Assembly: GCA_034660535.1 (NCBI GenBank)
Contig: JAYEJK010000148.1
Span: 1 to 40,965 of the forward strand
Direction of reading: 5' to 3'
From: Thermodesulfobacteriota bacterium
GTDB taxonomy: Bacteria; Desulfobacterota; Desulfobulbia; Desulfobulbales; DAOVYS01
DNA: 40,965 nt
The notes beneath the pieces were generated by a model that saw nothing but the letters and a program-made list of their open reading frames with translations, was not told the origin of the DNA and did not search any database. The translations under genes and the position numbers were made by a program. Below are positions 3,515 through 40,607 of this stretch, piece by piece (positions within the stretch are counted from its first letter, which is position 1; the number at the start of each line of letters is the position of its first letter).

Positions 3515-3563
3515 TTTTTTTCTGCCGGGAGAAGTCAAACTGTTTGGCTTGAGCCCTTCTTTT

Positions 3564-3895: not shown

Positions 3896-3927
3896 TATAA
3901 CAGCCTTGTTCCGGCAGGCCTTTGATT

Positions 3928-4003: not shown

Positions 4004-4204
4004 CTCAACCAAAAAACCGAACAATTTTAAACCCTGACAAGATTTTTGACAAGGACAAAAGTGAAGAAAAAGCGAATTATTGAAAATCCGCATGAAATCA
4101 GGCCGCGAGAAAAGCTTGATGCACTCGTAAAAAGTCGCGAGTAATGTTCACGATGGACCTTAGTATTTATTTTGCGATGTCATCAGGCTTGATTTTTAGT
4201 TGCA

Positions 4205-4954: not shown

Positions 4955-4961
4955 ACAACCT

Positions 4962-5990: not shown

Positions 5991-6001
5991 AGGGTAAAAA
6001 A

Positions 6002-6385
6002 ATGGATTCTTTGAGGTTGATTGCTGAGAGAAAGATCACCAAGGCCATCAAGGAGGGAACTTTAAACACCGAGGGGTGGAAAGGCAGACCTCTGCCCATG
6101 GAGGATGATCACCTGATCCCGGCCGATCTCAAGATGGCCTACAAGATGCTTAAGAACGCGGGTTTTGTGCCGCCTGAGATCGAGGCGAAAAAGGAAATCC
6201 ATAAGCTTGAAGAAATGATTGCTCAGACCGAGGATGAGCATGTGCGGATAAAGCAGCTCAAAAAACTCGACTTACTGCTTTTCAAGCTGAACGTTCAGAT
6301 GAATCGGCCGATAAATTTGGAGGAAAATAAAAAATACCACAGAAAAGTGGTGGAGAAGATAACTGTCAAACAGTCTCCGCCTTGA
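6002..6385 (+). CDS. DUF1992 (DnaJ-C28-like) domain protein
   Basis: IAERKITKAIKEGTLNTEGWKGRPLPMEDD...ADLKMAYKMLKNAGFVPPEIE matches the DUF1992 pattern (ErkI.eA...G.fdnl.GkGkPL ... N.g..P). Confidence 0.7.
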   Translation: MDSLRLIAERKITKAIKEGTLNTEGWKGRPLPMEDDHLIPADLKMAYKMLKNAGFVPPEIEAKKEIHKLEEMIAQTEDEHVRIKQLKKLDLLLFKLNVQMNRPINLEENKKYHRKVVEKITVKQSPP

Positions 6386-8550: not shown

Positions 8551-8556
8551 TAAAAA

Positions 8557-9655: not shown

Positions 9656-11266
9656 TTCATTTTTCCTTGGTTTAAATTTTACCTGCCTGACCAGGATGAA
9701 ACCTGGAAGCAGTAAAATCAGGCAGAGAGTTGCAAACCAGTGACCATAGGTCACAAAAAAAGTTTCCTCTTCAAGCAGTGAAACCTGCTCGATGAGGAAA
9801 TATGGTTCAAAAAGCGGGGAAATCTCCGACAGCCGGCCAAGAGGGTCCACAAAGCCGCTGATTCCGGTATTGGCTGCCCTGGCCAGGCTTATCCTGGTTT
9901 CAACCGACCGGAACACCGCCATGGAGAAATGCTGCCACGGGGCCCCGGATCGGCCGAACCAGGCATCATTTGTCAGATTCACCAAAAGATTTGCGCCGCC
10001 TGCCGCCTGCGCCCGGACCAGTTCCGGGAAAATGCTCTCAAAACAGATTAATACACCAATTTTTGCATTCCGGCAAGAAATTGGTTCTCTAAATGTACCC
10101 GGTGTAAAATCGCCCATGGTTTCCACAAGCGGTCCTGGAAAAGGGAGAATTTTTTTTAAGGGAATGTATTCCCCGAACGGAACAAGATGCTGCTTGTCAT
10201 ATCTGCCTGTAACATCTCCGGTATCCGTAATCAGAAAGGCGCTGTTGAAATACCTTATTGAGGCCGAACCAGGTGAAAATTCACGGTGCGGCGCCCCTGT
10301 CAGAAGAAATACCCGGTTTTTTTTGGCCAGACGGTCGACCAACCCGGAAAAGAGCCGGCTCTCCATAGGATAGAAGGGCATGGCCGTCTCAGGCCAAACC
10401 ACCATGTCAATCTTCTGTTCTGAAATAGCGGATTCAGACAAGCGCAGGTAACTTCGGACCGTATTTTTTTGAAGGCTTGGAATCCATTTTTGGTCCTGGT
10501 CAATATTGCCTTGAATCACTGCAACGGTCATCGTATCCGCCGAGTCCGCGATTTCGGCCATCTGATTATAGCGCAGAAAGCTGTAGGAAAACGCCGCCGT
10601 TACCAGCAGGACAGCAGGAAAAATAACCAACGCCCGGACCTTCCCCTTACTCTCCTTTCCAATTGTCGCTCCTTTTTTTTGAAACAGAAAAGAAAATATA
10701 GCAAGGATAATCCCATTTACAAGGACAATCAGGAACGTAATACCGTGATGACCGACAAGATCGGCTGACTGGATAAGAATAGGAAAATTGTACTGTGAAT
10801 AGGCCAAATCCTGCCAGGGAAATCCGGAAAAAAGCCGGCTTCGGACAAGATCAAGGGCCACCCATAGAACAGGAGCCGCCCACAGCCAGGGAACCGTCCC
10901 GGTCGACCAGCTTAAGCCGGCGGAAAAGAGAGCCATATAGAGACTCATGTAAAGAGAGAGCAAGAGAAGGGCAGGAATTGAAACCCACAAGGATAGATGA
11001 CCGTACGTGCCCAGAACGATCAGGATCCAGGAAAGCAGCAGGGTGTAGTAAACCAGGCCCGTGACAAGCCCCAGACACGCGGCCCTTTTCGGCGCCGCCT
11101 TTTTTGAAGCCCATAGGAGCGGAATGAGCGCGACCCAAGCCAGCATCCCATTTCCCATAGGCCCGGGAGAGGAAAAAAAGAGTAGCAGTCCGGACAGGAG
11201 GGGTGCAAAAAACAACCTGAAAACCGATCCGGCCCGATTCAAGCAGTTCATCCCGTTAAGGCGCAT
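9584..11266 (-). CDS. lnt: Apolipoprotein N-acyltransferase
   Basis: It has a multi-TM N-terminal half and a CN-hydrolase domain (...VVWPETAMPF..., ...IGVLICFESIFPE...). It lies downstream of corC, as in the ybeX-lnt synteny. The ORF has no stop of its own and runs in frame through prfB ORF0 to the frameshift-site TGA. Confidence 0.88.
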   Translation of the reverse strand: MRLNGMNCLNRAGSVFRLFFAPLLSGLLLFFSSPGPMGNGMLAWVALIPLLWASKKAAPKRAACLGLVTGLVYYTLLLSWILIVLGTYGHLSLWVSIPALLLLSLYMSLYMALFSAGLSWSTGTVPWLWAAPVLWVALDLVRSRLFSGFPWQDLAYSQYNFPILIQSADLVGHHGITFLIVLVNGIILAIFSFLFQKKGATIGKESKGKVRALVIFPAVLLVTAAFSYSFLRYNQMAEIADSADTMTVAVIQGNIDQDQKWIPSLQKNTVRSYLRLSESAISEQKIDMVVWPETAMPFYPMESRLFSGLVDRLAKKNRVFLLTGAPHREFSPGSASIRYFNSAFLITDTGDVTGRYDKQHLVPFGEYIPLKKILPFPGPLVETMGDFTPGTFREPISCRNAKIGVLICFESIFPELVRAQAAGGANLLVNLTNDAWFGRSGAPWQHFSMAVFRSVETRISLARAANTGISGFVDPLGRLSEISPLFEPYFLIEQVSLLEEETFFVTYGHWFATLCLILLLPGFILVRQVKFKPRKNEMSAELKQKLQDLKNRLLALQDHL

Positions 11267-24879: not shown

Positions 24880-24971
24880 TGGAGGGGGCAAGGGGAATCG
24901 AACCTCCTCCCGGTTTTGCAGACCGGGCCAACGGGTTTGAAGCCCGCGGGGCGCCCAGCACCATTGCCCCC
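24880..24971 (-). tRNA. selC: tRNA-Sec (anticodon UCA)
   Basis: The reverse complement is GGGGGCAATGGTGCTGGGCGCCCCGCGGGCTTCAAACCCGTTGGCCCGGTCTGCAAAACCGGGAGGAGGTTCGATTCCCCTTGCCCCCTCCA. It has an 8-bp acceptor stem (GGGGGCAA/TTGCCCCC), a CUUCAAA anticodon loop, a long variable arm, a GGTTCGATTCC T-arm and a CCA end. It is 92 nt long. Confidence 0.9.
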
Positions 24972-28956: not shown

Positions 28957-29389
28957 TTTTTGTGATCAGCTTCACTTCAGGTCCCATCCATTCTTCAATC
29001 GAGAGACTTTGATTTTCAGTAAAAAATTTTTCCCGGCTTTTCGTTATTAAATAACTCGACAGTCCAAAGTTTTCATATTTAAGTTTGACGACAACTTCAA
29101 ATTTTCAGAGTTGACGATACTGAGATGAATAAATGCCGGATTTAACCCCATTGGCCCCCCAATAGCAATTACAGTTGACCATCACCGAGTCAATCGGTCT
29201 AAGTCGGTAAAACCCATAATACAATCGGAAATAGCGTTTGACAATAGGCCTTCGTCTGATATATTTTTGTTTATCCCTGTTTGTATGGATGAAAGACCCG
29301 TAAGTCAGGTCAATGGCAAACATAACCATGAACCGATAGCAGAAGGCCATTGCGAGACAACCTATGGGGCCAAGTGTGAGTGGATACAA

Positions 29390-29605
29390 ATGATGGAAGA
29401 CCGATGGCTCTCCGCAGATGATATTGTGGCTTATCTCGGCATCAAGCGGGATACCGTTTATAGATGGATAAGTGAAAGAAATATGCCTGGGCACAAGATC
29501 GGTCGCTTGTGGAAGTTTCGTAAAGAAGAGGTCGACGAGTGGATGCGAAGCGGAGGTGGCCGGAGTGATGCCAACGATAAGCCGGTCGACGAACCGCAAT
29601 CCTGA
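29390..29605 (+). CDS. Excisionase-family / MerR-like helix-turn-helix DNA-binding protein
   Basis: MMEDRWLSADDIVAYLGIKRDTVYRWISERNMPGHKIGRLWKFRKEEVDEWM is the canonical excisionase-type HTH pattern (L...e.A.yLg.s..t.y.w......P..k.G..w.f...e.d.W.). Confidence 0.8.
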   Translation: MMEDRWLSADDIVAYLGIKRDTVYRWISERNMPGHKIGRLWKFRKEEVDEWMRSGGGRSDANDKPVDEPQS

Positions 29606-30272: not shown

Positions 30273-31521
30273 ATGGCAAAAGACCTTAATAAAAAGCCTT
30301 ATGACGAGGCAACGCTCACCAAACTGGAAATCTTCGAACAATATCTGATCGCGTGGCTACCTGTGTTCATACATACACCCCATACAAGCAAAGCCATGAT
30401 CTGCGATTTTTGTGCCGGTTCTGGATATGATTCTATTGGCATAGATGGAAGTCCTATTCGCATCGTCAAGCGAATAGACAATTATCGCGACCAGATTTTC
30501 CAGAATGATATTCATATCGATATTCTTCTAAATGATGTAAAAATCAAGAAATACCGTGAACTGGAGAACGCTGTCGCCGAATCGTTTCAGGAGGAATCCT
30601 GGCATGGCAAGGTTACTCTTTCTTGTCACAACGAAGATTTCCAGCAGCTCTTCCGGCAACAATACGAGCGCCTAAAACAACAGCCAAACCTCCTTTTTAT
30701 CGACCAGTCCGGCGTCAGGCAGGTCACGAATGAAATCTTCCAGATGCTGATCGGCCTGAATAAAACGGACTTTCTGTTTTTCATTTCGTCATCAGCGATA
30801 AAGCGGTTTGCCGGAACAGCCGAGTTTAGTACCTTAGTGGTAATTTTCTTGTTTTTTCTGGCAGGAAATCAAAAAGGTGAAATATTTTTAAATAGTTACA
30901 CGCTGCTGTTAAGGTACTTATCCAGGACCTTTAAAAATTCCAGTTTATCTGGGTTAGGAGTCTTTTTCCTGACATTGATCCCGATAAGATTTCGGCTGCC
31001 AAGCATGAAGATATTCATCGAATCATGCTGGACTACTACACGCTGAAAATCCCAGAGACAATCTCACAAGGTTGTATCCCTTTTCGCTTAAAAAAGGGTC
31101 AAACATTTACGGTTTAATTTTTGGTTCAAAGCATCCCCTCGGTGTTGAGAAGTTTCTCGATCTGGTATGGGTCCAAAACGCCATCAACGGGGAAGCTAAT
31201 TTCGACATCAATGACGACGTTGAAAAAGGGCAACCGACCCTATTCGATTTGCTACCCGACTTCGAACGTCCTAAAACCAAACGAGAATTGTTTGAAGACT
31301 ATCTGGAAGAGTTCATTCACAATCACGGCCAGGTCACAAACCGTGAAGTATACGACTTTACATTGATTCATGGCCACCCAAAGTCTCATGCGGGCGAATG
31401 CATAATACGCTTGAAAAGTGAAGGTAAAGTAGAGTATAGCGGGCGAATCGGGTTCAGCTATAAATCCTGCGGCAAGAAGAATTCCGTACTAAAGACAATA
31501 AAATGGATAACTAATGGCTAA
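30273..31521 (+). pseudogene. tcmP: Three-Cys-motif partner protein TcmP, disrupted by a family-2 element insertion and one frameshift
   Basis: It lies immediately upstream of, and overlaps, a DUF5131/Gp37-Gp68 gene, which is the usual TcmP pairing. The frame is intact from 30273 to 30829. Removing 30830..30957 rejoins ...GTAEF|RSLFPDIDPDKISAAKHEDIHRIMLDYYTLKIPETISQ... in frame. A further 1-nt shift near 31068..31075 leads into ...YPFSLKKGSNIYGLIFGSKHPLGVEKFLD... (the frame of ORF 31072..31521). Confidence 0.7.
30830..30957. mobile_element. Family-2 small mobile element, copy B (124 bp plus a 4-bp TTAG duplication)
   Basis: TTAG at 30826..30829 is repeated at 30954..30957. The sequence is collinear with 40006..40187, apart from two 27-nt inserts in the latter. 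There are no long terminal inverted repeats. Confidence 0.8.
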
Positions 31522-32887
31522 TTCCAAAATAGAATGGACAGATTCAACATGGAATCCAGTGACGGGTTGCAGAAAAACAAGTGCAGGATGCCTGAACTGC
31601 TACGCGGAACGTATGTCCAAGCGGTTGAAGGCAATGGGGCAGGCAAACTATGCTAATGGCTTTGAGGTAACGATGCACCCGCACGTCATTGAGCATCCGC
31701 TGAAATGGAAAAAGGCACAGGTCATATTTGTGAACTCTATGAGCGACTTGTTTCACGAGGATGTTCCGCTGGAGTTTATCCGGCAAATCTTTGATGTGAT
31801 GACCAGGGCAGACTGGCACACATTTCAGATTTTGACCAAACGGTCCAAGCGTCTGGAAGAATTGGCTCCGCTGCTGGAATGGCCCAAAAACGTTTGGATG
31901 GGTGTGACGGTCGAGAATGCCAGTTGTGCCTACCGTATCGAGCACCTTTGCACTGTCCCTGCAGCAGTGCGGTTTTTATCAATGGAGCCGCTGTTGTCAG
32001 CGGTGGATGACATGAACCTTGACGGCATCGACTGGGTTATCGTTGGTGGCGAATCAGGCCCGGGGGCACGCCTAATACAAAAACAATGGGTATATGGCAT
32101 CCGCAAGCAATGTCGAGAAGCAAAGGTACCTTTCTTTTTCAAGCAGTGGGGAGGTATTAATAAGAAAAAGGCAGGCCGGGAACTTGACAGCCGGATTTAT
32201 GACGAGATGCCGGAACAACCTTGGAAATATTGTCATCCGCCGATGAAAAAGACTGAATGGCTGGCCAGAGAGGTGGCCATGGTCGTAAATGCAGGCAAGG
32301 CCTGGGACTGTGAAACGGTTGACTTTTCAAATCCCAACCGTCCGCCAACGTGTTTGGAGGTCGATTTTCCGATCCTGCCTATCAACCAGATTGCGGCTAT
32401 CGAAGGCAATGCGGGCAAGCCCATTTACCAGATGTCCAAGTGGTGGGCGCGGAGATGCAGCAGCGTATTCCGTGCCATGCTCATAACCGCTGCCATGAAA
32501 GCCCCGGAGGACCCGTCCGAGGCAGCCAAGCAGGTATGGGATGCCTATTACGGCAACCATCAGAAAAAGGGCGCGTTCAAGCATCTCAAGGTTGCCGACA
32601 TCTTCATGGGCGGCAGCACCACAGTCGTGGAAGGCTCGCGTCTCGGCATGCAGATGTACGGCAACGATCTGAACCCCGTGGCCTGGTTCGTGGTCAAGAA
32701 CGAGATGGCCAAAGTGGAGAATGCCGAGGTCAAGGCGCAGATCATGCCTTTCTACGCCTGCGATTGCCCGTGCGGCCACAAGGGCAAATGGACAAAGGTC
32801 GGTACCGGGGAGGTGATGGGTGATGATTTCGAGCCTACCTCACTTTGCCCCGAGGAGCATAAAGAGTATAGCTATGAAGGCCCCTAA
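31514..32887 (+). CDS. DUF5131 (phage Gp37/Gp68 family, three-Cys motif) protein, continuing in frame into an N-terminal DUF1156-type methyltransferase fragment
   Basis: Residues 1 to about 235 read ...IEWTDSTWNPVTGCRKTSAGCLNCYAERM... and ...VPFFFKQWGG...GRELDSRIYDEMP, which is the Gp37/Gp68 pattern. From about residue 244 (nt 32243) the sequence reads ...CLEVDFPILPINQIAAIEGNAGKPIYQMSKWWARR... and ...VADIFMGGSTTVVEGSRLGMQMYGNDLNPVAWFV. That is the DUF1156 N-terminal motif plus SAM-binding motif I. No stop codon separates the two parts. Confidence 0.7.
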   Translation: MANSKIEWTDSTWNPVTGCRKTSAGCLNCYAERMSKRLKAMGQANYANGFEVTMHPHVIEHPLKWKKAQVIFVNSMSDLFHEDVPLEFIRQIFDVMTRADWHTFQILTKRSKRLEELAPLLEWPKNVWMGVTVENASCAYRIEHLCTVPAAVRFLSMEPLLSAVDDMNLDGIDWVIVGGESGPGARLIQKQWVYGIRKQCREAKVPFFFKQWGGINKKKAGRELDSRIYDEMPEQPWKYCHPPMKKTEWLAREVAMVVNAGKAWDCETVDFSNPNRPPTCLEVDFPILPINQIAAIEGNAGKPIYQMSKWWARRCSSVFRAMLITAAMKAPEDPSEAAKQVWDAYYGNHQKKGAFKHLKVADIFMGGSTTVVEGSRLGMQMYGNDLNPVAWFVVKNEMAKVENAEVKAQIMPFYACDCPCGHKGKWTKVGTGEVMGDDFEPTSLCPEEHKEYSYEGP

Positions 32888-33345
32888 TCATCTATGTCTT
32901 TTGGGCCAAGCACGGTCCCTGCCAGGTCACGGGCTGCGGCCATCGCACGCCGATCATGACCAGCCCCGCGTCATGGTGGTAAAAACCATTTCCGTGAAGT
33001 ATTGGGTTCACCAATGCCCTCACTGCGGTGGCAAATACGACCTGGAAGAACGAGAAGCACGCATGGCCCCTGGTGGTAATCTCGCTTTCACGTTTCCACC
33101 ACAGTGAGGACGCGCCGTGGGTAGCGGTTTTGGAGTCGTTGTTTGACGCGGGATTCTACCTTGCGGCCACCTACCTGATTCGCAGCGACGAGACCAAAGG
33201 CACGGGTGAATTCGGCTCCGAGAAAATCGAATACGACATCATCCACGTCTGCCGTAAGCGCATGGAGGACCCCGAGCCCATAAGCTGGAACACAAGATGC
33301 GCCGCCAGTGTCCGCTGCCTGCAGGAGATGCTGGAACATCACCGA
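32243..33345 (+). pseudogene. DUF1156-type (anti-phage-associated) DNA methyltransferase, heavily degraded
   Basis: Collinear fragments lie in different frames. The N-terminal part is in the 31514 frame. It is followed by PLIIYVFWAKHGPCQVTGCGHRTPIMTSP (shifted at about 32880), then VVKTISVKYWVHQCPHCGGKYDLEE (shifted again). The C-terminal piece is ...FHHSEDAPWVAVLESLFDAGFYLAATYLIRSDE...DIIHVCRKR... (33028 frame). The total of about 1.1 kb compares with about 2.7-3 kb expected for this family. Confidence 0.6.
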
Positions 33346-33372
33346 CGGACCAATTCAGAGCGAGGAAATAAA

Positions 33373-36048
33373 ATGAGCAAGACAGACTCAATCGTGAATG
33401 CCCAAGAATTACCCTGCGGCGCTCGTTTTTTTCGTTGCGCCCTTCAAGTGAATCCATTTGATTATATTGTACGGCATAGCAAAGAGACGGTGTTCAACAA
33501 CGAATCGGATTATAATGCGGCGATAGTGAAGGCGTGTAAGAGAATCGGTATTGAGGTGATCGCTATTACCGATCACCAGCGTTGCAGCACCGGACAGTCA
33601 CTGGCCGAAGCGGCCCGCGCTGAAGGAATTATTGTTTTTATCGGAGCAGAATTGGAAACCAAAGAGGGTGTTCATATGTTGCTTCTTTTTGAACCGGATG
33701 CCTCTTGGGAGCGCTGCAACGGTATATTGGGCGATTGCGGAATTCATGACCAGGCGAATCCGCCTTCGGCAATCAAATATGATGTACATGAGTTACTGCG
33801 TGAATCTGTCCGATGGAACTGTATCTGTGTTGCCGCCCATGTAGCGAGTGAAAAAGGCTTGTTGCAGGTACTGGATAATCAGGCCCGGGCGGCGGCATGG
33901 AAATCCGAGTATCTTCCGGCCTGCTCTCTGCCCGGCCCGGCGAAAGATGCACCACCGAACCTGCGGCCAATTTTGCTCAACAAAAACTCTGACTATCTTC
34001 GTGATCGACCTGTAGCTGTAATCAACGCTCAGGACGTGTCAAGTCCGGATGATTTTGAAAAAGCTGGCTCGTCTTGTTGGATAAAGATGTCAGATGTTAC
34101 GATTGAGGGATTACGACAGGCGTTTCTTGATCCTGCTTCCAGGATACGTATGGCCAGTGATCCACCTCCGGAGGAGCACACCGAGTTCATTGCCATATCA
34201 TGGCAAGGTGGTTTTCTCGATTGTGCGGCAATTCATTTAAATGAAAACCTGAATGTCCTAATCGGCGGACGAGGAACAGGGAAATCAACTGTCGTTGAAA
34301 GTATCCGTTATGTCCTTGGCATGCAACCACTCGGTGAGGAAGCCCTTAAGGCTCATAGTGGCATTGTTCGCCAGGTACTTCGTAGCGGCACAAAGATTTC
34401 AATGCGGGTCCGCTCTTACCACCCGGATAAGCGTTATTACCTGATCGAACGAACTATTCCGAATCCACCTGTTGTCAAAGACGAGACCGGCAATGTTCTC
34501 AATCTGACTCCCACGGATGTCGTCCCCCAGACCGAAATATACGGACAACATGAGATCTCGGAACTTACTAAAAGCCGCGAAAAACTCACACACCTTCTCG
34601 ACCGTTTCGTAGAATGCGATACCGATATCTTAAAACGAAAAAGTGGCGTTCGCCGGCAGTTGGAGCGTTCACGCTCGCGTTTGCTTGAAACCCACAGAGA
34701 GCTTCTGCAAATTGAGGATCGTCTCGCCACTCTGCCGGCTCTTGAGGAGACATTGCGTCGGTTCCAGGATGCCGGGCTTGAGGAGAAACTTAAGGAGCAG
34801 AGCCTTCTTGTTCGGGAAGAAAGGGTGCTTAAGACTTCAGGGGAACGGCTAAGCCCCTTCAAGGAACTGCTGAATCAATTGGAGAGTGATCTTCCAATTG
34901 ATCGTGCTTTTATCTCTCCAAAAGCGCTGGAGAATCTTCCCGGAAAGGAAATTTTGGGTGATACGAACGACATCCTGGAACAGTTCACAAAGGACATGAA
35001 TAGTATCGTCGCTGAAATAAAGAAGGCTATCGGAAACGCAGAGACTGGTTTGGGTGAAATACGGAGCCGCTGGGGGGAACGAAAAAAGGCGGTTATGGCG
35101 GCGTATGAAGCCATCTTGCTTGAACTGCAGAAATCGAAGATTGATGGTGAGGAATTCATCCGCTTAAGGCGACAAATGGAGGAACTCCGTCCGCTAAAAG
35201 AAAGGCAAACCGCGTTACAGCGCAATTTGAAAGAGTATGAAACTGAACGGCGGAATCTTCTCTCTGAGTGGGAAGACGTAAAGGCCGAAGAATTCCGGCA
35301 TCTGGAACGTGCGGCAAAAAAAGTAAACAGGAAACTTGAAGGACGTGTTTTGGTCGATGTTGCTGCAGGCGGAAATAGGGAACCGCTGATTCAGCTTCTG
35401 CGTGATCAAATTGGAGGACGCTTGTCCGAGACGATTGAGTCCTTGACGCAAAGCACAGACTTCTCTCTTCCGATATTCACTGAAGCATGTAGAGAAGGTC
35501 GGGAGGCTTTGTCCCTGCAGTTCAACATCCCTACCAGCCAATCAGAACGTATTGCTCAGGCAAAGCCCAATATCATAATGCAAATCGAGGAATTGGAGCT
35601 GCCGCCTACCACAACCATTAAACTAAATGTCGCTGCTGACGATCAACCACCAGTGTGGCAGACGCTTGAAGACCTTTCCACAGGACAAAAAGCAACTGCG
35701 GTTCTCCTTCTCCTGCTGCTTGAGTCGAGCGCACCTCTGGTTGTGGACCAGCCGGAAGATGATCTCGATAATCGCTTTATTTCCGACGGAATAGTGCCAA
35801 AAATGCGAGAAGAAAAACGCCGACGTCAGTTCATCTTCGCCACCCATAACGCCAATATCCCGGTGCTGGGAGACGCCGAGTTGATAGTCGGGCTAACAGC
35901 GTTCGGTGAGGCGGGACAAGGCAAAGCGAAGCTTTCTCAGGAGCATATGGGGTCTATCGACACACGCCTCGTCCGTGAACTTGTTGAAGAAGTCCTGGAA
36001 GGTGGAAAGGACGCTTTTGAGATGCGACGCTTAAAGTACGGATTTTGA
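33373..36048 (+). CDS. PHP-domain phosphoesterase fused to an SMC/Rad50/RecN-like ABC ATPase with a long coiled-coil insert
   Basis: The ATG at 33373 is preceded by GAGGAAAT. The PHP-like N-terminus reads ...FRCALQVNPFDY...IEVIAITDHQ...VFIGAELETKEGVHMLLLF...VAAHV... Walker A is LIGGRGTGKST, followed by about 350 aa rich in heptad-like E/K/L/R. The signature-like motif is LSTGQK, Walker B is PLVVDQPEDDLD and the H-loop is FIFATHN. The ORF-track start at 33028 adds methyltransferase-remnant codons. Confidence 0.8.
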   Translation: MSKTDSIVNAQELPCGARFFRCALQVNPFDYIVRHSKETVFNNESDYNAAIVKACKRIGIEVIAITDHQRCSTGQSLAEAARAEGIIVFIGAELETKEGVHMLLLFEPDASWERCNGILGDCGIHDQANPPSAIKYDVHELLRESVRWNCICVAAHVASEKGLLQVLDNQARAAAWKSEYLPACSLPGPAKDAPPNLRPILLNKNSDYLRDRPVAVINAQDVSSPDDFEKAGSSCWIKMSDVTIEGLRQAFLDPASRIRMASDPPPEEHTEFIAISWQGGFLDCAAIHLNENLNVLIGGRGTGKSTVVESIRYVLGMQPLGEEALKAHSGIVRQVLRSGTKISMRVRSYHPDKRYYLIERTIPNPPVVKDETGNVLNLTPTDVVPQTEIYGQHEISELTKSREKLTHLLDRFVECDTDILKRKSGVRRQLERSRSRLLETHRELLQIEDRLATLPALEETLRRFQDAGLEEKLKEQSLLVREERVLKTSGERLSPFKELLNQLESDLPIDRAFISPKALENLPGKEILGDTNDILEQFTKDMNSIVAEIKKAIGNAETGLGEIRSRWGERKKAVMAAYEAILLELQKSKIDGEEFIRLRRQMEELRPLKERQTALQRNLKEYETERRNLLSEWEDVKAEEFRHLERAAKKVNRKLEGRVLVDVAAGGNREPLIQLLRDQIGGRLSETIESLTQSTDFSLPIFTEACREGREALSLQFNIPTSQSERIAQAKPNIIMQIEELELPPTTTIKLNVAADDQPPVWQTLEDLSTGQKATAVLLLLLLESSAPLVVDQPEDDLDNRFISDGIVPKMREEKRRRQFIFATHNANIPVLGDAELIVGLTAFGEAGQGKAKLSQEHMGSIDTRLVRELVEEVLEGGKDAFEMRRLKYGF

Positions 36049-36059
36049 GGGGTAATTAA

Positions 36060-37277
36060 ATGACAAAGACAGAGCTGTTAGAGCTAATCAAGAACGGTGA
36101 AAACTCTGGAATTGAGTTCAAGCGCGACACTATAGACAACCGGGCCATGGCCAAAGAGCTAGTTGCATTTGCTAACTTACGAGGCGGCCGTGTGCTTTTG
36201 GGAGTGGATGATGATGGCAGCGTGGTTGGGATAACCAGGGATCGGTTAGAAGAATGGATTATGACTACCTGTCGAGATAAAATTCGCCCTGAGTTAATCC
36301 CGTATTATGAAATAATCCGCGATGTGGAGCCAGGGAAAGATGTAGCTATTGTTCAAGTTGACCGCGGATGGGCGGTCCATCATGTTTGGCACAATAACCA
36401 TCGGACTTACTATATTCGTGTTGGAACACAGAGCCGCGAGGCCAGTGCCGAGGAACTTGAGCGGTTGTTTCAGCAGCGTGGGGCCTTCCGGCTGGAGGTA
36501 CGCGGGGTATCGGGCTCATCCATGGACAATTTTGACTATCGTCGCTTAAACGATTATTTTCAGCGTATCCGCTCTCAAGAAACGCCAGGCACGGATGATA
36601 CGAATGCCTGGCAAAATCTGCTTGTAAACACCGAATTCCTGGTTGATGAAGACGACACGACTCCGGCGACAGTTGCGGGCTTACTTCTGTTTTGCGCTAA
36701 TCCGAATCGTTTCTTGCCCCAAGCCGGAATAGATGCCGTTGCTTATCCTGGAAAGGAAAAGGATTATGCCGCTAAAGAACGGTTAGCTATTCGCGGTCCT
36801 ATGACGGCCCTGTTTGGGAGCGAAGGACTCGTTGAAAATGGACTTGTGGAACAAGCGGTGGAATTCACAAGGCGAAATACCGAAGTGTCGGCCGGTTTTG
36901 CTGATGGTGCGAGGCGCGAGGAACGATGGTTGTATCCGGAAGAAGCGATTAGGGAAGCCATTGTCAACGCCCTTGTTCATCGGGACTACCTTTTGTCGGG
37001 AACGACTGTGGAATTGTCTATATATGAAGATCGATTAGAGGTGGTTTCTCCCGGACGTCTTCCTAACGGCATCACTCCACAGCGTATGATAACGGGGTGC
37101 CGTTCAGCCCGGAACCAATTGCTCAAAGATGTCATGAGAGACTACGGTTATCTTGAGCACATGGGCATGGGTGTGCCTCGCAAAATCGTTAAAGAAATGC
37201 AAAAACATAACGGCACTTCGCCCGATTTGGTCGAGGATGAGGAGCGCTTTTTGGTCAGACTGTGGAAGAAGAAATGA
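36060..37277 (+). CDS. AlbA_2 (Schlafen-type) DNA-binding domain protein with a C-terminal HATPase_c_4-like domain (RecG-like putative regulator)
   Basis: ...LIKNGENSGIEFKRD...ELVAFANLRGGRVLLGVDDDGSVVGI... is the AlbA_2 signature. The C-terminal part reads ...EAIREAIVNALVHRDY...IEIYEDRLEVVSPGRLPNG... It lies 11 nt after the ATPase gene, with a GAGGGG SD. Confidence 0.8.
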   Translation: MTKTELLELIKNGENSGIEFKRDTIDNRAMAKELVAFANLRGGRVLLGVDDDGSVVGITRDRLEEWIMTTCRDKIRPELIPYYEIIRDVEPGKDVAIVQVDRGWAVHHVWHNNHRTYYIRVGTQSREASAEELERLFQQRGAFRLEVRGVSGSSMDNFDYRRLNDYFQRIRSQETPGTDDTNAWQNLLVNTEFLVDEDDTTPATVAGLLLFCANPNRFLPQAGIDAVAYPGKEKDYAAKERLAIRGPMTALFGSEGLVENGLVEQAVEFTRRNTEVSAGFADGARREERWLYPEEAIREAIVNALVHRDYLLSGTTVELSIYEDRLEVVSPGRLPNGITPQRMITGCRSARNQLLKDVMRDYGYLEHMGMGVPRKIVKEMQKHNGTSPDLVEDEERFLVRLWKKK

Positions 37278-37870
37278 AAGAAATAGACGTCAGGGGTTTG
37301 GCCTGCCCGGCTCCGGTATTGCGGACAAAAAACGCCATAGAAGAGAACAACTTAAATAGTATAAAAGTCCTGGTGGATAATGAAGCGTCCATGCAAAACG
37401 TCGACCGTTTTCTTAAATCCCGGGGTTTTAAAGTCTCATTACAGGTGAAGGATGGGGATTTTCATGTTACAGGGAGGCATGAAGGTGGAACTGAGACTGA
37501 AGTCGCGGCGGCTGAAAAACCGGATGATGAAAAGAAAAAAACCATGGTTATGGTTGTAACGGACTGCATGGGTCACGGGGATGATGAGCTTGGCTCAAAG
37601 CTTATGGTGAGTTTTTTAAAAACCATAAAGGAAATGGGTGATGAACTGTGGCGGCTGGTTTTTGTGAATAACGGCGTTAAACTTACTATCGAAAATTCCG
37701 AGGTGCTGCCGATTTTGAAAGAATATGAAAAAGACGGTCTGCATATCCTGGTCTGCGGGACATGCCTGACTCATTTTGATTTGCTGGACAAAAAACAGGT
37801 GGGCGAAACCACAAATATGCTCGATATTGTTACAGCCATGCAACTGGCCGATAAGGTGATTAGTATTTGA
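37274..37870 (+). CDS. yedF: Selenium metabolism protein YedF (TusA/SirA-like N-domain plus DsrE-like C-domain)
   Basis: MKEIDVRGLACPAPVLRTKNAI... carries the CPxP motif. The C-terminal half, ...MVMVVTDCMGHGDDELG...LVCGTCLTHFDL..., is the DsrE-like fold. The ATG overlaps the upstream stop as ATGA (37274..37277). Confidence 0.8.
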   Translation: MKEIDVRGLACPAPVLRTKNAIEENNLNSIKVLVDNEASMQNVDRFLKSRGFKVSLQVKDGDFHVTGRHEGGTETEVAAAEKPDDEKKKTMVMVVTDCMGHGDDELGSKLMVSFLKTIKEMGDELWRLVFVNNGVKLTIENSEVLPILKEYEKDGLHILVCGTCLTHFDLLDKKQVGETTNMLDIVTAMQLADKVISI

Positions 37871-37917: not shown

Positions 37918-38973
37918 ATGGCAGATGAAAAAATAAAAGCACTTCGTCTCACGGAAACAGTAACAGGTTCGGGGTGAGCGTCGAAACTGCCTCCAGGGGA
38001 CCTGGACAGGGCGCTATGCGGGATGGAATTTCCCACTGATTCGAATCTGATCGTAGGTCTTGATCGTGCGGATGACGCCGGTGTTTACAAGATCACGGAT
38101 GATATAGCCATTATTCAGACTGTGGATTTTTTTACGCCCATTGTGGATGATCCATACCAGTTCGGGCAGATCGCTGCTGCAAATGCCTTAAGCGATGTAT
38201 ATGCCATGGGTGGTGTGCCGAAAACCGCAATGAATCTGGTGGCCTTTCCGCTAAAGCAGATGGATATGTCCATTCTCCGTCAAATTCTTCAGGGCGGAAT
38301 GGATAAGATGAAAGAGGCGGGCGTGGTGCTGGTGGGCGGGCACAGTGTGGAGGACAATGAACTGAAATACGGTTTGTCTGTCATGGGTTATATTCACCCG
38401 GATCGAATTCTTTTAAAGAAAAACCTTAAACTCGGAGATCGACTGATTTTGACAAAACCCCTGGGAACAGGAATCGTGAATACAGCAATTAAGGGAGGGC
38501 TCGCTTCCGAAAAAGTCGTTGAGTTTGTCACAGGTCTTATGGCGACCCTGAACAGGGATGCGGCAGATGTAATGAATGATTACCCTGTCAGCGCATGCAC
38601 GGATATTACCGGTTTCGGCCTGATCGGTCATTTGGCGGAGATGGTGTTTGATTCCAGGTATGGTATAGAAATTTGGACTGAAAAAATACCGATTATCCCC
38701 GAAGCCATAGAGTATGCCGGTATGGGTTTGGTGCCCGCGGGAGCTTACAAAAACCGTGAATTTCGAGAATCAATGGTCGATTTTGCCCCTTCCGTGGATA
38801 TCCTGCTTCAGGATGTTCTTTTTGATCCCCAAACATCCGGAGGGCTATTGATCTGTGTGGAAAAAGAAAACGCTGATGATATGGTGAAAAGTTTAAAGAA
38901 AAAGGGAGTAGATAATGCGGCTGTTATCGGAGAAGTGTTGTCCGGGCCAAAGGGAAGGATTGTTGTAATTTAA
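37918..38973 (+). CDS. selD: Selenide, water dikinase SelD, selenocysteine-containing form (in-frame UGA at 37975..37977)
   Basis: ATG at 37918: MADEKIKALRLTETVTGSG-U-ASKLPPGDLDRALCGMEFP..., in frame with ORF 38023..38973 (an offset of 105 nt). The UGA sits at the position of the catalytic Cys/Sec in the SelD N-terminal Gly-rich loop (E. coli ...HGAGCGCK...). The remainder shows the AIR-synthase-like SelD fold (...DDPYQFGQIAAANALSDVYAMGG...). Confidence 0.88.
37989..38012 (+). promoter_or_regulatory. Candidate SECIS hairpin for the selD UGA
   Basis: GCC-UCCAGG-GGA-CCUGGA-(CAG)-GGC. The stem begins 11 nt after the UGA, the canonical bacterial SECIS spacing, and the apical loop is G-rich. Confidence 0.5.
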
Positions 38974-39155: not shown

Positions 39156-39338
39156 TTACAGCGATTCCTGGCGCATTTCATCTTCAACAGGTTGCATTAT
39201 AATTCGACCGTCTTTATAAATAACAAGCGGTGTACGGGTTTCCCTTGCTGTTTTACGGGCTTTTTGAGCCGCCCGCAGCAACGCCGCTTCAACCCTGGCA
39301 AGATCGGGGTCTTGAATTGTCTTTTTTGTTGTGGTCAT
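39156..39338 (-). CDS. Small protein, putative cognate antitoxin/partner of the zeta-like ATPase
   Basis: 60 aa: MTTTKKTIQDPDLARVEAALLRAAQKARKTARETRTPLVIYKDGRIIMQPV... Its start overlaps the upstream gene stop by 4 nt (ATGA-type coupling). Confidence 0.55.
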   Translation of the reverse strand: MTTTKKTIQDPDLARVEAALLRAAQKARKTARETRTPLVIYKDGRIIMQPVEDEMRQESL

Positions 39339-39859
39339 CGATTTTTTCCCTCATCAATGAGTTGTGGGCTTTCGCCTGAATTATTATACAGCACCCAGGC
39401 ATCGACTAAATTTTTATAGATATTATGAAAGTTATTCCATCCTTTGTCAAACCGGCGATGGATAACCGGCTCATCCACATTGTGACCGCCCTGGGCAACA
39501 CGAATCCGCACCCGTTCCACAGCAATTTCCACGTCCGGCAGACTGAGAAAAATTAGTTTGGTCCGATATCCGATATCCTGCCACTGCCGGATATATCGGG
39601 CGTAAAGGCGGCCGCTCAGCGTGGTTTCAAAGGCAAAACTTTCTCTGCGTCCAACATATCCCCTGATTTCTTCGATCATCAGACGACCAGCCCTGAATGC
39701 TGCTTGTTCAGGGGTGAATGGCGACAGCCCGGCCGCGATAAGATCAGCATTGACAAAGGAGGGACAGGCCGCTTCCCTGACCAGAAATTCTCTGGCGAAT
39801 GTGGTCTTGCCCGCACCATTTGGCCCGGCAATGATAACAATTTTTTGCTCTTCACTCAT
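39335..39859 (-). CDS. Zeta-toxin-family P-loop kinase-like protein
   Basis: MSEEQKIVIIAGPNGAGKTTFAREF... is the Walker A motif, and ...FAFETTLSG... follows. The size of about 174 aa and overall pattern fit the zeta toxin/AAA_33-like kinase fold. Confidence 0.7.
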   Translation of the reverse strand: MSEEQKIVIIAGPNGAGKTTFAREFLVREAACPSFVNADLIAAGLSPFTPEQAAFRAGRLMIEEIRGYVGRRESFAFETTLSGRLYARYIRQWQDIGYRTKLIFLSLPDVEIAVERVRIRVAQGGHNVDEPVIHRRFDKGWNNFHNIYKNLVDAWVLYNNSGESPQLIDEGKNR

Positions 39860-40607
39860 AATTGACCCTGCACATCATTCTCTGTTATCCGTCGCTTACC
39901 GGTGACGCATTCGTGGATCAGGGACTTGCGGTATTGTTCGAGGGTTGAGATTTGTTTTTCGATGTTATCATGTAGCGTTGATAACTCTACACATTTTTTG
40001 TTTAGTGCCTTAGTGGTAATTTTCTTGTTTTTTCTACCCCTCAAGGGGGTACTGAAATGAGTGGCAGGAAATCAAAAAGGTGAAATATTTTTAAATAGTT
40101 ACACGCAGCTGTTAAGGTACTTATACCCCTCAGGGGGGTACTGAAAATAGTCCAGGACCTTTAAAAATTCCAGTTTATCTGGGTTAGATAGCTGACGATA
40201 AATTTTTGTTCGGTGTCAGGAGGCAGTGGTATCGTGCCGTTTTTTACATGTCTGTTGGCAATTGCCCATCGTGTTATTCCCGTTGCTTCTCTGTGCAATT
40301 GGCTGGCAATAGATGCATCTCGCAAAACCCAAAAAAGATATGAACCTCTAAGCCTTTGATTATTACTGCGAATTATTGATAGATGGTACCCACATAGCAA
40401 TTTGGGCTGAGTCTCAACTACTAAGGCGGGGACAGCAATGTCATATGGGTCTTCAGAGTCTTTTGTAATAAGAACATCTTTTTTAAAGAACATCTTCGCC
40501 ATGAAATCCTCTATCCCGTACCCCACCGTCAATACGTTTTCAGTATCCCCAAGATACTCAGGGTCTATTTCAAATACGACCGTAAACTCCTTGGCAAACT
40601 CTGTCAA
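39856..40607 (-). pseudogene. hsdS: Type I restriction-modification specificity subunit HsdS remnant (single TRD plus C-terminal conserved helix), disrupted by a family-2 element
   Basis: ...GYHLSIIRSNNQRLRGSYLFWVLRDASIASQLHREATGITRWAIANRHVKNGTIPLPPDTEQKFIVSYL, then the insertion, then NKKCVELSTLHDNIEKQISTLEQYRKSLIHECVTGKRRI. Removing 40006..40187 rejoins both parts in frame. No Met or N-terminal TRD is present, and upstream lies a transposase fragment. Confidence 0.7.
40006..40187. mobile_element. Family-2 small mobile element, copy C (182 bp, carrying two nested 27-nt inserts)
   Basis: TTAG at 40002..40005 is repeated at 40184..40187. It is collinear with copy B, apart from the inserts ACCCCTCAAGGGGGTACTGAAATGAGT (40036..40062) and ACCCCTCAGGGGGGTACTGAAAATAGT (40125..40151). 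Confidence 0.8.

What the first reader, a model, noticed from the sequence alone, without database searches (positions are those of the whole stretch)
33373..37277. Intact PHP-nuclease/phosphoesterase-SMC-like ATPase paired with an AlbA_2/Schlafen-type ATPase: candidate two-gene effector module
The 891-aa protein combines an N-terminal PHP domain with a Rad50/SMC/RecN-style ABC ATPase. Walker A is GGRGTGKST, the signature is LSTGQK, Walker B is VVDQPEDDLD and the H-loop is ATHN. The ATPase is split by about 350 residues of coiled coil.

From memory, a PHP + ATPase architecture was reported as the single-gene Ppl anti-phage system (Gao et al. 2020). That resemblance needs verification.

Here the gene is followed after 11 nt, with its own SD, by an AlbA_2 (Schlafen-like) DNA-binding protein with a GHKL-like HATPase_c_4 domain. 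The stop of that gene overlaps the yedF start as ATGA.

Both genes are uninterrupted while every other island gene carries lesions. This suggests they are under selection as a functional pair, for example a DNA-sensing SMC clamp delivering a PHP nuclease, with the AlbA_2 protein as sensor or regulator.
Basis: partly seen in the sequence, partly recalled or inferred. Interest (0 to 1): 0.65.

Follow-up and report, generated by a model that had tools for sequence, protein, structure and literature searches.

The report
TrlF–TrlG two-gene growth-arrest/defence cassette
The two intact genes are a divergent copy of the already named TrlF–TrlG operon, which pairs a Ppl-like PHP/SMC-type ATPase with a Schlafen-type RNase–ATPase. 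The pair is inherited as a tight unit across many phyla, often inside restriction-like systems. It is a real and plausible, but not new and still untested, immune module.

Summary
Window 33373-36048 encodes an 891-aa PHP + split ABC/SMC-like ATPase, and 36060-37277 encodes a 405-aa SLFN_AlbA_2 + GHKL (HATPase_c_4) protein. The 11-nt spacer, the quoted motifs and the ATGA overlap with yedF are all present.

The large protein passes NCBIfam's cutoff for the "TrlF family AAA-like ATPase" (518 bits against 350). It fails the Ppl model (198 bits against 1000).

The pairing is not chance:
- 71 of 79 informative genome loci, spanning many bacterial phyla and ANME-1 archaea, carry the AlbA_2 gene beside the TrlF gene.
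- 61 of these have it immediately downstream, with a median gap of 9 nt.
- None has yedF or selD next to the pair.

The pair matches the TRL operon of Photorhabdus (trlF-trlG). There, trlG loss-of-function mutations relieve growth arrest at 36 °C.

TrlG keeps the Schlafen nuclease motif (E14, E19, K21), so it is more likely the RNase effector than a DNA-binding regulator. In this clade the PHP motif I of TrlF reads QxN instead of HxH.

About 15% of loci place the pair inside Hma (DUF499-type) systems, and plasmids place it inside type I restriction-modification operons. In the window only remnants of the Hma methylase remain.

Verdict: a new member of a known kind. Its defence role is inferred, not shown.

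The parts
33373..36048 (+). trlF homologue: 891-aa PHP domain + split ABC/SMC-like ATPase
   Evidence: NCBIfam NF045780 TrlF_fam_ATP scores 518.5 bits (cutoff 350) over aa 16-890. Pfam finds PHP, SMC_N and AAA_21. Homologues are 891-892 aa long. The AlphaFold2 model has mean pLDDT 78.
33424..34128 (+). PHP-fold domain of TrlF (aa ~18-252), with variant motif I CALQVNP at 33436-33456
   Evidence: pLDDT is about 90 over this region. Foldseek matches EndoQ, RNase AM and the PolC/DnaE PHP domains. C22, Q25, N27, H68, E93, H101, H156 and D221 are conserved in 71-76 of the loci. The canonical HxH occurs only in distant clades.
34264..34290 (+). Walker A GGRGTGKST (aa 298-306)
   Evidence: Read directly from the sequence. 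K304 and S305 are present in 79 of 80 aligned sequences.
34576..35334 (+). Antiparallel coiled-coil arm (aa ~402-654), with its apex near aa 507-524 and no CxxC hook
   Evidence: The AlphaFold2 secondary structure shows long helices. Foldseek matches SMC, JetC, MukB, Rad50, RecN and LmuB.
35674..35850 (+). ABC signature LSTGQK, Walker B VVDQPEDDLD and H-loop ATHN (aa 768-826)
   Evidence: Read directly from the sequence. S769, G771, Q772, D792, E795 and H825 are conserved in 78-79 of 80 sequences. Q793, in place of the usual Glu after the Walker B Asp, is invariant in alignment A2.
36049..36059 (+). 11-nt intergenic spacer with an SD-like GAGGGG that overlaps the trlF stop codon
   Evidence: Sequence. 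The median gap in 63 intact homologous pairs is 9 nt, and 61 pairs have gaps of 3-24 nt.
36060..37277 (+). trlG homologue: 405-aa Schlafen (AlbA_2) nuclease + GHKL ATPase ('Schlatpase')
   Evidence: Pfam SLFN_AlbA_2 scores 72 bits and HATPase_c_4 scores 77 bits. PADLOC matches the N-terminal part of SLFN-pAgo models. The Photorhabdus TrlG has the same architecture.
36099..36443 (+). SLFN/AlbA_2 domain (aa 14-128). The catalytic motif E14-NSGI-E19-F-K21 lies at 36099-36122, and the Schlafen box VAFAN at aa 35-39.
   Evidence: E14 and K21 are present in 69 of 69 aligned residues and E/D19 in 69 of 69.
36942..37262 (+). GHKL-type ATP-binding region (aa ~295-401), including E299/N303 and the G369/G371 lid
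   Evidence: PF13749 matches aa 314-401. N303, H307, D309, G332 and G369 are invariant in 72 sequences. E299 is invariant in alignment A4. PF13749 is identified as a GHKL domain. Equivalence to RzAgo E314/N318 is inferred from the sequence pattern.
32357..32698 (+). N-terminal remnant of a DUF1156 (HmaB-type) DNA methylase, lying in the same ORF as DUF5131 (31514-32887)
   Evidence: tblastn with an intact HmaB matches its aa 11-168. Pfam DUF1156 and PADLOC HmaB/MTase_II hits support this.
33028..33372 (+). Internal fragment of the same methylase (HmaB profile positions 673-755), running in frame into the trlF ATG
   Evidence: PADLOC HmaB hit and the ORF list. The last ~200 aa of the methylase, HmaA and HmaC are absent.
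37274..37870 (+). yedF, the host gene at the right-hand boundary; not part of the module
   Evidence: NCBIfam TIGR03527 scores 223 bits. No yedF or selD lies next to the pair in any of the 80 loci.

Best explanation
The locus is a TrlF-TrlG cassette. It is a self-contained, horizontally mobile two-gene module of the same family as the Photorhabdus TRL operon. Here it is the surviving part of a decayed Hma (DUF499/DUF1156-type) restriction-like island inserted next to yedF-selD.

Proposed mechanism:
- TrlF is a Ppl-related dimeric SMC/Rad50-like ABC ATPase carrying a PHP-fold phosphoesterase domain. It engages DNA, probably ends or single-stranded 3' termini.
- TrlG is a Schlafen nuclease joined to a GHKL ATPase. 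It oligomerises on ATP and cleaves tRNA or another RNA, which stops growth (abortive infection).
- TrlF either senses the trigger and licenses TrlG, or restrains it until triggered.

Status of each step:
- Shown here: family membership, domain and motif integrity, and conserved tight pairing.
- Taken from the literature: TrlG-dependent growth arrest, Schlafen-GHKL tRNase activity, and Ppl exonuclease activity.
- Inferred: DNA sensing by TrlF, TrlF-TrlG communication, and an anti-phage or anti-plasmid role.
For: Family assignment: TrlF scores above the NCBIfam cutoff over its full length. RefSeq annotates plasmid homologues as 'TrlF family AAA-like ATPase' followed by an 'RNA-binding domain-containing protein'.

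Pairing:
- 71 of 79 informative loci from many bacterial phyla and ANME-1 archaea have the pair.
- The median gap is 9 nt.
- No other neighbour is found in more than 12 loci.
- Pairwise identities of the two proteins correlate (r = 0.62; 0 of 2000 Mantel permutations reach this value).
- One 1354-aa TrlF-TrlG fusion exists.

Integrity: the ATPase, PHP-site and Schlafen catalytic residues are conserved.

Fold: the ATPase resembles SMC, JetC, Rad50, RecN and LmuB heads with a coiled coil. The PHP domain resembles EndoQ and RNase AM.

Literature:
- trlG loss-of-function mutations or operon deletion relieve growth arrest at 36 °C (PMC7554251).
- Prokaryotic Schlafens are anti-phage tRNases with an Ex4(E/D)xK motif.
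- SLFN+GHKL proteins tetramerise on ATP and cleave tRNA.
- Schlafen-HisK-wHTH genes are linked to BREX and DUF499-centred loci.
- Ppl is an NTP-regulated 3'-5' ssDNA exonuclease.

Context: the pair sits inside Hma operons in about 10 loci. It sits inside type I RM operons on IncC plasmids.
Against: - No anti-phage or anti-plasmid phenotype has been reported for any TrlF-TrlG pair in the literature I could search.
- The only known phenotype is heat-dependent growth arrest. It mapped to trlG alone and never to trlF.
- TrlF-family genes often occur alone on plasmids: 756 records hold TrlF against 53 holding TrlG.
- TrlG-like genes occur without TrlF in about 44% of metagenome loci, for example inside a BREX locus. 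Each partner can therefore work without the other.
- PHP motif I is QxN, not HxH, so nuclease activity is unproven.
- The residue after the Walker B Asp is Gln, not Glu.
- The TrlG structure model was too poor to use (pLDDT 45).
- No complex prediction was possible.
- Most flanking genes in other loci have no PADLOC match at E ≤ 1e-10.
Confidence: 0.6

Rival explanations
1. These are two independent single-gene systems that merely travel together. One is a Ppl-like nuclease-ATPase (TrlF) and the other a stand-alone Schlafen-GHKL effector (TrlG), with no functional coupling between them.
For: - Solo TrlF-family genes occur on Staphylococcus, Shigella/E. coli and Xanthomonas plasmids.
- Ppl works as a single gene.
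- TrlG-like genes lack an upstream TrlF in 19-20 of 45 metagenome loci, and one sits alone inside a BREX locus.
- All Photorhabdus suppressor mutations fell in trlG.
Against: - The pair is adjacent in 90% of loci of this TrlF clade, with a conserved 3-24 nt gap.
- The order and strand are the same across phyla.
- The divergence of the two proteins is correlated.
- A fusion protein exists.
- No other gene is conserved beside them.
Confidence: 0.18
2. The pair is an accessory or back-up layer of a restriction-like system (Hma/DUF499-type or type I RM). It is triggered when that system is inhibited, as PrrC is by EcoprrI, and is not autonomous.
For: - The order HmaA-TrlF-TrlG-HmaB-HmaC recurs in about 10 loci.
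- The pair lies between type I hsd genes on IncC plasmids.
- An HmaB remnant lies directly upstream of trlF in the window.
- Schlafen-HisK genes are reported as back-up effectors of BREX and DUF499-centred loci.
- The PrrC analogy is from my own knowledge, not from a tool result.
Against: - About 80% of loci show no restriction-modification or Hma gene within 10 kb by tblastn.
- In the window the methylase is destroyed and HmaA and HmaC are absent, yet the pair is intact.
- The Photorhabdus operon lies between polA and dsbA with only a small regulator gene.
Confidence: 0.12
3. The pair is a stress-response or addiction (toxin-antitoxin-like) module that limits growth under heat or other stress, and it has no role against phages or plasmids.
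For: - The only experimental phenotype is growth restriction at 36 °C with temperature-induced transcription.
- trlF mutants were never recovered. This is compatible with TrlF restraining a toxic TrlG.
- Plasmid carriage is frequent.
Against: - Both protein families have experimentally shown anti-phage relatives.
- The pair is embedded in restriction-like operons.
- Its patchy distribution points to horizontal transfer.
Confidence: 0.08
4. These are housekeeping DNA-repair proteins, as some automatic annotations suggest (RecN/SbcC-like ATPase plus 'RecG helicase').
For: Source annotations read 'DNA repair ATPase RecN' and 'ATP-dependent DNA helicase RecG'. Foldseek finds similarity to Rad50 and RecN.
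Against: - TrlG has no helicase domain, and the 'recG' label is a known misnomer.
- RecN and SMC NCBIfam scores are far below their cutoffs.
- The operon can be deleted.
- Its distribution is patchy and it is carried on plasmids.
Confidence: 0.02

Closest known systems
TRL (temperature restriction locus) operon trlR-trlF-trlG of Photorhabdus laumondii (Hapeshi et al. 2020, PMC7554251); NCBIfam NF045780 'TrlF family AAA-like ATPase'
   Same: - The gene order is the same: a PHP-ATPase followed by an AlbA_2 + HATPase_c_4 protein.
- The AlbA_2 domain has the same coordinates (aa 14-128).
- The window TrlF passes the family cutoff.
- The relatives on Y. ruckeri pYR3 named in that paper, and those on IncC plasmids, are recovered with both window proteins.
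   Different: - Identity to the pYR3/IncC-type pair is only about 27-28%.
- There is no trlR-like small regulator upstream, either in the window or conserved in the 79 loci.
- PHP motif I is QxN here, against DFHLHT in the pYR3/IncC type.
- The genes are separated by 11 nt here, whereas they overlap by about 20 nt in the IncC and pYR3 types.
- The second acidic residue of the Schlafen motif is E here but Q in the IncC/pYR3 TrlG.
- The Photorhabdus sequences themselves were not available to align.
Ppl (Gao et al. 2020 single-gene anti-phage system; NCBIfam NF042955, PADLOC PDLC02208)
   Same: The architecture is the same: an N-terminal PHP domain plus an ABC-type ATPase with a helical insertion. 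The homology is significant (198 bits in NCBIfam, 133 bits in PADLOC).
   Different: - The score is far below the Ppl equivalog cutoff of 1000 bits.
- Ppl acts alone, whereas this clade is almost always paired with TrlG.
- Motif I of this clade lacks the HxH histidines.
- Ppl's reported mechanism, an NTP-inhibited 3'-5' ssDNA exonuclease that senses 3'-OH ends, is untested for TrlF.
Prokaryotic Schlafens / 'Schlatpase' (SLFN + GHKL) proteins, including SLFN-pAgo (RzAgo) and the pSlfn-HisKinase(-HTH) classes
   Same: - TrlG has the SLFN_AlbA_2 domain with the E-x4-E-x-K motif and the Schlafen box.
- It also has the PF13749 GHKL domain.
- PADLOC aligns TrlG aa 32-334 to the N-terminal part of a pAgo model.
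   Different: - TrlG has no Argonaute, Ig-like or other fused sensor.
- Its conserved partner is a separate SMC-like PHP-ATPase, an association not mentioned in those papers.
- RNase activity of TrlG itself has not been tested.
Hma system / DUF499-centred BREX-related (BR) systems (HmaA helicase, HmaB DUF1156 methylase, HmaC DUF499 ATPase)
   Same: A DUF1156/HmaB-type methylase remnant lies directly upstream of trlF. In about 10 other loci the pair sits inside intact Hma operons.
   Different: In the window only two methylase fragments remain, and HmaA and HmaC are absent. Most TrlF-TrlG loci have no Hma genes.
SMC-like defence ATPases (Lamassu LmuB, Wadjet JetC) and Rad50/RecN
   Same: TrlF has a split ABC head with a coiled-coil arm. 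It shows Foldseek matches at E = 1e-7 to 1e-3 and PADLOC LmuB hits.
   Different: - The arm is short and has no hinge or zinc hook.
- The nuclease-like domain is a fused PHP domain rather than a separate Mre11, JetD or LmuA protein.
- Sequence scores lie far below all the family cutoffs.

Membership tests
TrlF family (NCBIfam NF045780) | Whole-protein score at or above the curated cutoff, with full-length coverage | tested here: met
   518.5 bits against a cutoff of 350; aa 16-890 align to profile positions 2-944.
TrlF family (NCBIfam NF045780) | Architecture of an N-terminal PHP domain plus an ABC ATPase head split by a coiled coil | tested here: met
   Pfam domains, AlphaFold2 model and Foldseek matches.
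TRL operon (Photorhabdus trlR-trlF-trlG) | trlF is followed on the same strand by an AlbA_2 + HATPase_c_4 gene (trlG) | tested here: met
   11-nt spacer in the window. The pair is present in 71 of 79 loci. The architecture is described.
TRL operon (Photorhabdus trlR-trlF-trlG) | A small HTH regulator gene (trlR, 79 aa) upstream of trlF | tested here: not met
   A methylase remnant lies upstream in the window. No small upstream ORF is conserved across the loci.
TRL operon (Photorhabdus trlR-trlF-trlG) | TrlG-dependent growth arrest on temperature up-shift | not testable with these tools
   The phenotype is known only for P. laumondii.
Ppl (NF042955 / PADLOC Ppl) | Equivalog-level sequence score | tested here: not met
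   197.7 bits against a cutoff of 1000. PADLOC Ppl scores 133 bits in two partial stretches.
Ppl (NF042955 / PADLOC Ppl) | A single-gene system | tested here: not met
   A conserved downstream partner is present in 90% of loci.
Canonical PHP metal-dependent phosphoesterase | Motif I HxH together with the downstream His, Glu, His, His and Asp ligands | tested here: inconclusive
   H68, E93, H101, H156 and D221 are conserved, but motif I is C-A-L-Q-V-N-P (Q25/N27) in 75 of 82 pairs. Activity is unknown.
Prokaryotic Schlafen nuclease (pSlfn) | SLFN_AlbA_2 domain with the catalytic E-x4-(E/D)-x-K motif and the Schlafen box | tested here: met
   Pfam scores 72 bits against a cutoff of 25.3. E14, E19, K21 and V35-AFAN39 are conserved. 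The motif is defined.
Schlatpase (SLFN + GHKL supradomain) | A PF13749 GHKL ATP-binding domain C-terminal to the SLFN domain, with Mg/ATP ligands (E...N) | tested here: met
   PF13749 scores 77 bits. E299 and N303 are invariant. Their equivalence to RzAgo E314/N318 is inferred from the sequence pattern, not from a structural alignment.
Schlatpase (SLFN + GHKL supradomain) | tRNA cleavage and ATP-driven oligomerisation | not testable with these tools
   The TrlG model was of low confidence (pLDDT 45).
Hma / DUF499-centred BR system | An intact HmaA helicase, HmaB methylase and HmaC ATPase | tested here: not met
   Only HmaB fragments are found, at 32357-32698 and 33028-33372. tblastn finds no HmaA or HmaC.

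The most novel reading that the evidence does not exclude
TrlF-TrlG may be a widespread, so far unvalidated immune system in which an SMC/Rad50-like, Ppl-related DNA sensor controls a Schlafen tRNase. This would be a two-protein prokaryotic counterpart of DNA-stress-coupled tRNA cleavage, as in human SLFN11 and bacterial RloC (both comparisons are from my own knowledge). In this reading the QxN PHP domain is repurposed from a nuclease into a regulatory nucleotide- or DNA-end-binding module. The cassette would act as a back-up layer inside Hma and type I restriction operons, including those on clinically important IncC blaNDM plasmids.
Probability: 0.3. Interest if true: 0.65.

Novelty: new member of a known kind. 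Interest (0 to 1): 0.4.

Why it matters
The cassette is very common. The family has 1449 clusters at 50% identity with E ≤ 1e-30. It spans many phyla and archaea, and it occurs on 53 plasmids, including IncC NDM plasmids. Yet its only published phenotype is an unexplained 'temperature restriction'.

Three bodies of work have not been joined in the literature I could search: the TRL operon, Ppl, and the recently characterised Schlafen-GHKL tRNases. Joining them yields a concrete hypothesis: a DNA-sensing ATPase coupled to a tRNase. It also yields point mutants to test it, and E. coli-compatible homologues to test it in.

For this particular window the result is mostly annotation. The island is a decayed Hma-type system, and only the TrlFG pair has remained intact.

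Tried and rejected
- **TrlG structure.** The AlphaFold2 model had pLDDT 45, so no fold search was run on it.
- **Reciprocal degeneracy.** I tested whether the PHP and Schlafen active sites degenerate reciprocally (HxH TrlF paired with a Q19 TrlG, QxN TrlF paired with an E19 TrlG). This was rejected: HxH-type TrlFs also pair with canonical E..E.K TrlGs.
- **trlR-like regulator.** A search for a conserved small ORF upstream of trlF found none.
- **Phage carriage.** The viral-contig scan found no relatives.
- **Near-identical DNA in complete E. coli genomes.** A megablast with the Citrobacter pair found no match.
- **Rfam scan of 28-41 kb.** It returned nothing.
- **Promoter and terminator scan.** It found no more sites than in shuffled sequence, so the transcription unit is unresolved.
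- **PDB sequence search.** It gave only weak SMC hits and 3lmm, and no Ppl or TrlF structure.
- **Krishnan et al. 2020 (ABC ATPase classification).** This paper may describe the association, but it is not held in the library. Prior description there cannot be excluded.
- **Third conserved gene.** Neighbour clustering and PADLOC scans of the flanking genes found only Hma genes, in 6-7 of about 50 loci.

Full report
**1. Observation**

Two co-directional ORFs lie at 33373-36048 (891 aa) and 36060-37277 (405 aa). The first ORF is open upstream to a GTG at 33028. That extra stretch is the tail of a degraded methylase (PADLOC HmaB profile positions 673-755). Homologues are uniformly 891-892 aa long, and a GAGGA box precedes the ATG at 33373. 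The spacer between the genes is 11 nt. The stop codon of the second gene overlaps the yedF start as ATGA.

Pfam finds PHP, SMC_N/AAA_23 and AAA_21 in the large protein. It finds SLFN_AlbA_2 (aa 14-128) and HATPase_c_4 (aa 314-401) in the small one.

**2. What the large protein is**

NCBIfam assigns it to NF045780, 'TrlF family AAA-like ATPase', with 518.5 bits against a cutoff of 350 and full-length coverage. The Ppl model scores 197.7 bits against a cutoff of 1000. PADLOC gives Ppl 133 bits and weaker LmuB, GajA and PtuA hits. The protein is therefore homologous to Ppl but is not a Ppl equivalog.

An AlphaFold2 model (mean pLDDT 78; PHP domain about 90) shows three parts:
- a PHP-fold domain at aa ~18-252;
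- an ABC head;
- a coiled-coil arm of about 250 residues with no CxxC hook.

Foldseek matches the ATPase and arm to SMC, JetC, MukB, Rad50, RecN and LmuB. It matches the PHP domain to EndoQ, RNase AM and the PolC/DnaE PHP domains.

The family is large. There are 3696 homologues at E ≤ 1e-10 among the candidates scored, and 1449 clusters at 50% identity with E ≤ 1e-30.

**3. An unexpected detail in the PHP site**

Motif I reads C-A-L-Q-V-N-P, where canonical PHP enzymes have D-x-H-x-H. Q25 and N27 are conserved in 71-72 of the aligned loci. So are H68, E93, H101, H156 and D221. The canonical DFHLHT occurs only in distant members, including the Y. ruckeri pYR3 and IncC plasmid proteins.

The site is clearly under selection, but its chemistry (nuclease or ligand binding) cannot be read from sequence. 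In addition, the residue after the Walker B aspartate is an invariant Gln (D792-Q-P-E795).

**4. What the small protein is**

It is a Schlafen/AlbA_2 domain followed by a GHKL-type ATP-binding domain. Recent work defines the Schlafen catalytic motif as E-x4-(E/D)-x-K, together with a 'SAFAN' Schlafen box. That work shows that prokaryotic Schlafens are anti-phage tRNases. It also shows that the SLFN+GHKL 'Schlatpase' unit tetramerises on ATP to form the active nuclease.

The window protein carries:
- E14-NSGI-E19-F-K21;
- V35-AFAN39;
- E299 and N303.

All of these are conserved in about 70 partners. PADLOC aligns aa 32-334 to the N-terminal part of a pAgo model, which fits the SLFN-pAgo relationship. 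The 'RecG helicase' labels in the databases are a misnomer, because the protein has no helicase domain.

**5. Is the pairing real?**

A scan of one genome per species returned 80 loci encoding TrlF relatives at 40-94% identity. They come from Thermodesulfobacteriota, Chloroflexota, Acidobacteriota, Verrucomicrobiota, Nitrospirota, Gemmatimonadota, Actinomycetota, Bacillota, Spirochaetota, Pseudomonadota, ANME-1 archaea and other groups.

- One locus ends at the contig edge and is uninformative.
- Of the other 79, 71 carry a TrlG-like gene beside trlF.
- In 63 intact pairs the median gap is 9 nt, and 61 have gaps of 3-24 nt.
- None has yedF or selD nearby.
- All-against-all clustering of the flanking ORFs found no other family in more than 12 loci.
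- Pairwise identities of the two proteins correlate (r = 0.62; 0 of 2000 Mantel permutations reach this value). Shared organismal history contributes to this correlation.
- One 1354-aa protein is a TrlF-TrlG fusion. Its junction looks frameshifted, so I give it little weight.

The association is asymmetric. Among TrlG-like genes from metagenomes with at least 2.7 kb of upstream sequence, 25 of 45 have TrlF upstream. One close TrlG relative sits alone between PglX and PglZ of a BREX locus. On plasmids, 756 records hold a TrlF-family gene but only 53 hold a TrlG-like gene, and solo TrlF genes are common.

**6. The pair already has a name**

'Trl' stands for temperature restriction locus (PMC7554251). 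In Photorhabdus laumondii an operon comprises trlR (a 79-aa regulator), trlF (annotated 'histidinol phosphatase') and trlG (AlbA_2 at aa 14-128 plus HATPase_c_4, mis-annotated as recG). This operon stops growth at 36 °C.

- Spontaneous temperature-tolerant mutants carried substitutions, stop codons or IS insertions in trlG. None carried a mutation in trlF.
- Deleting the operon gave the same tolerance.
- The substitutions include S16N, V35I and A36V. In the IncC TrlG and the window protein, these positions fall in the Schlafen catalytic motif and the Schlafen box. This mapping rests on shared numbering. I could not align the Photorhabdus sequence itself.

The paper notes homologues on Y. ruckeri pYR3 next to type I RM genes, and I recovered these. 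I found no later paper in the library that connects TRL with phage defence.

**7. Genomic context**

In about 10 of the 79 loci the pair lies inside an Hma (DUF499/DUF1156, 'BREX-related') operon. The usual order is HmaA-TrlF-TrlG-HmaB-HmaC. In L043 the order is HmaA-HmaB-TrlF-TrlG-HmaC.

On plasmids the pair lies inside type I RM operons:
- Citrobacter IncC pCFR-0b27: hsdM-hsdS-trlF-trlG-hsdR;
- E. coli IncC pNDM102337: HTH-hsdR-trlF-trlG-hsdS-AAA-hsdM.

A 2026 survey reports Schlafen-HisK-wHTH genes as back-up effectors linked to BREX and DUF499-centred loci in at least 1017 taxa.

In the window, only two fragments of a DUF1156 methylase remain. One is fused behind a complete DUF5131 domain and the other runs into trlF. 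HmaA and HmaC are absent. The neighbouring TcmP gene is split.

The window therefore holds a decayed restriction-like island in which trlFG alone is full length with all conserved residues. This is consistent with selection on the pair, although I did not test intactness statistically.

**8. Mechanism**

Shown here:
- family membership;
- intact ATPase, PHP-site and Schlafen residues;
- tight, conserved operon coupling.

Taken from the literature:
- TrlG is required for growth arrest.
- Schlafen-GHKL proteins cleave tRNA after ATP-driven oligomerisation.
- Ppl is an NTP-regulated 3'-5' ssDNA exonuclease that senses 3'-OH ends.

Inferred:
- TrlF dimers engage DNA ends or single-stranded DNA through the SMC-like head and the PHP domain.
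- TrlF then either licenses TrlG or releases it from restraint.
- TrlG cleaves tRNA and halts growth.

The absence of trlF mutants among the Photorhabdus suppressors fits either of two models: TrlF is dispensable for toxicity, or TrlF restrains a toxic TrlG. I cannot decide between them.

**9. Verdict**

The PHP 'nuclease' is uncertain.

The module is a divergent member of a named family and operon. It is therefore a new member of a known kind rather than a new system. Its defence function remains a well-motivated but untested hypothesis.

Noticed in passing
window 37918-38973 (TGA at 37975-37977); tRNA-Sec at 24880-24971 (-): selD is a selenoprotein gene. Its true start is the ATG at 37918, and an in-frame TGA falls in the motif TGSG-U-ASK. 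This is why the ORF finder starts the gene at 38023. Together with yedF and a tRNA-Sec about 13 kb away, the island sits inside a selenium-utilisation gene neighbourhood.
   Followed up: partly
window 30273-32220: There is a TcmP / DUF5131 pair (PADLOC candidate system PDC-M30). TcmP is split into two ORFs (30273-31046 and 31072-31521). The DUF5131 domain is complete but has no stop codon of its own and reads on into DUF1156 methylase debris (ORF 31514-32887).
   Followed up: partly
window 29267-29605: An HTH_17/AlpA-type (excisionase-like) gene lies at the left edge of the island. It is followed by about 700 nt (29.6-30.3 kb) of overlapping ORFs with no family match. This stretch may be a degraded integrase region.
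   Followed up: partly
window 39156-40607 (- strand): A second patch of defence-type remnants lies beyond selD. It contains a zeta-toxin/AAA_33-like 174-aa gene with a small upstream partner ORF, and fragments of a type I RM specificity subunit (Methylase_S).
   Followed up: partly
L001 (QENJ01000018.1, a Ca. Methanophagaceae bin) 439-4211: This is the closest relative of the pair (94% and 97% identity), found in an ANME-1 archaeal bin. TrlF is cut at aa 850 and TrlG is inverted against it. The cause could be an inversion, an assembly chimera, or a contig from a bacterial partner that was binned with the archaeon.
   Followed up: no
P0340 (1354 aa): A single polypeptide joins TrlF (aa ~77-941) to TrlG (aa 951-1354, 51% identical to the window TrlG). 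The junction sequence looks like a frameshifted TrlF tail. It may be a sequencing artefact rather than a natural fusion.
   Followed up: partly
L165 (E. coli IncC pNDM102337) 3377-7164; L081 (Citrobacter IncC pCFR-0b27) 6013-9926: TrlF-TrlG pairs are embedded between the hsd genes of type I restriction operons on conjugative IncC plasmids, including a blaNDM plasmid. These are convenient homologues for experiments.
   Followed up: partly
L165 6001-6150; L166 6001-7149: The IncC and pYR3 TrlG proteins have Gln at the second acidic position of the Schlafen motif (E-x4-Q-x-K). Nearly all other partners have E or D there. Whether these proteins are active nucleases is unclear.
   Followed up: partly
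L086 1707-11842: A close TrlG relative (73% identity) sits alone, without TrlF, between PglX and PglZ-BrxL of a type 1 BREX locus.
   Followed up: partly
window 35746-35760 (TrlF aa 792-796): The Walker B aspartate is followed by an invariant Gln (D-Q-P-E) instead of the usual catalytic Glu. In engineered SMC and Rad50 proteins an E-to-Q change at this position blocks hydrolysis (my own knowledge). Here E795 may take over that role.
   Followed up: no
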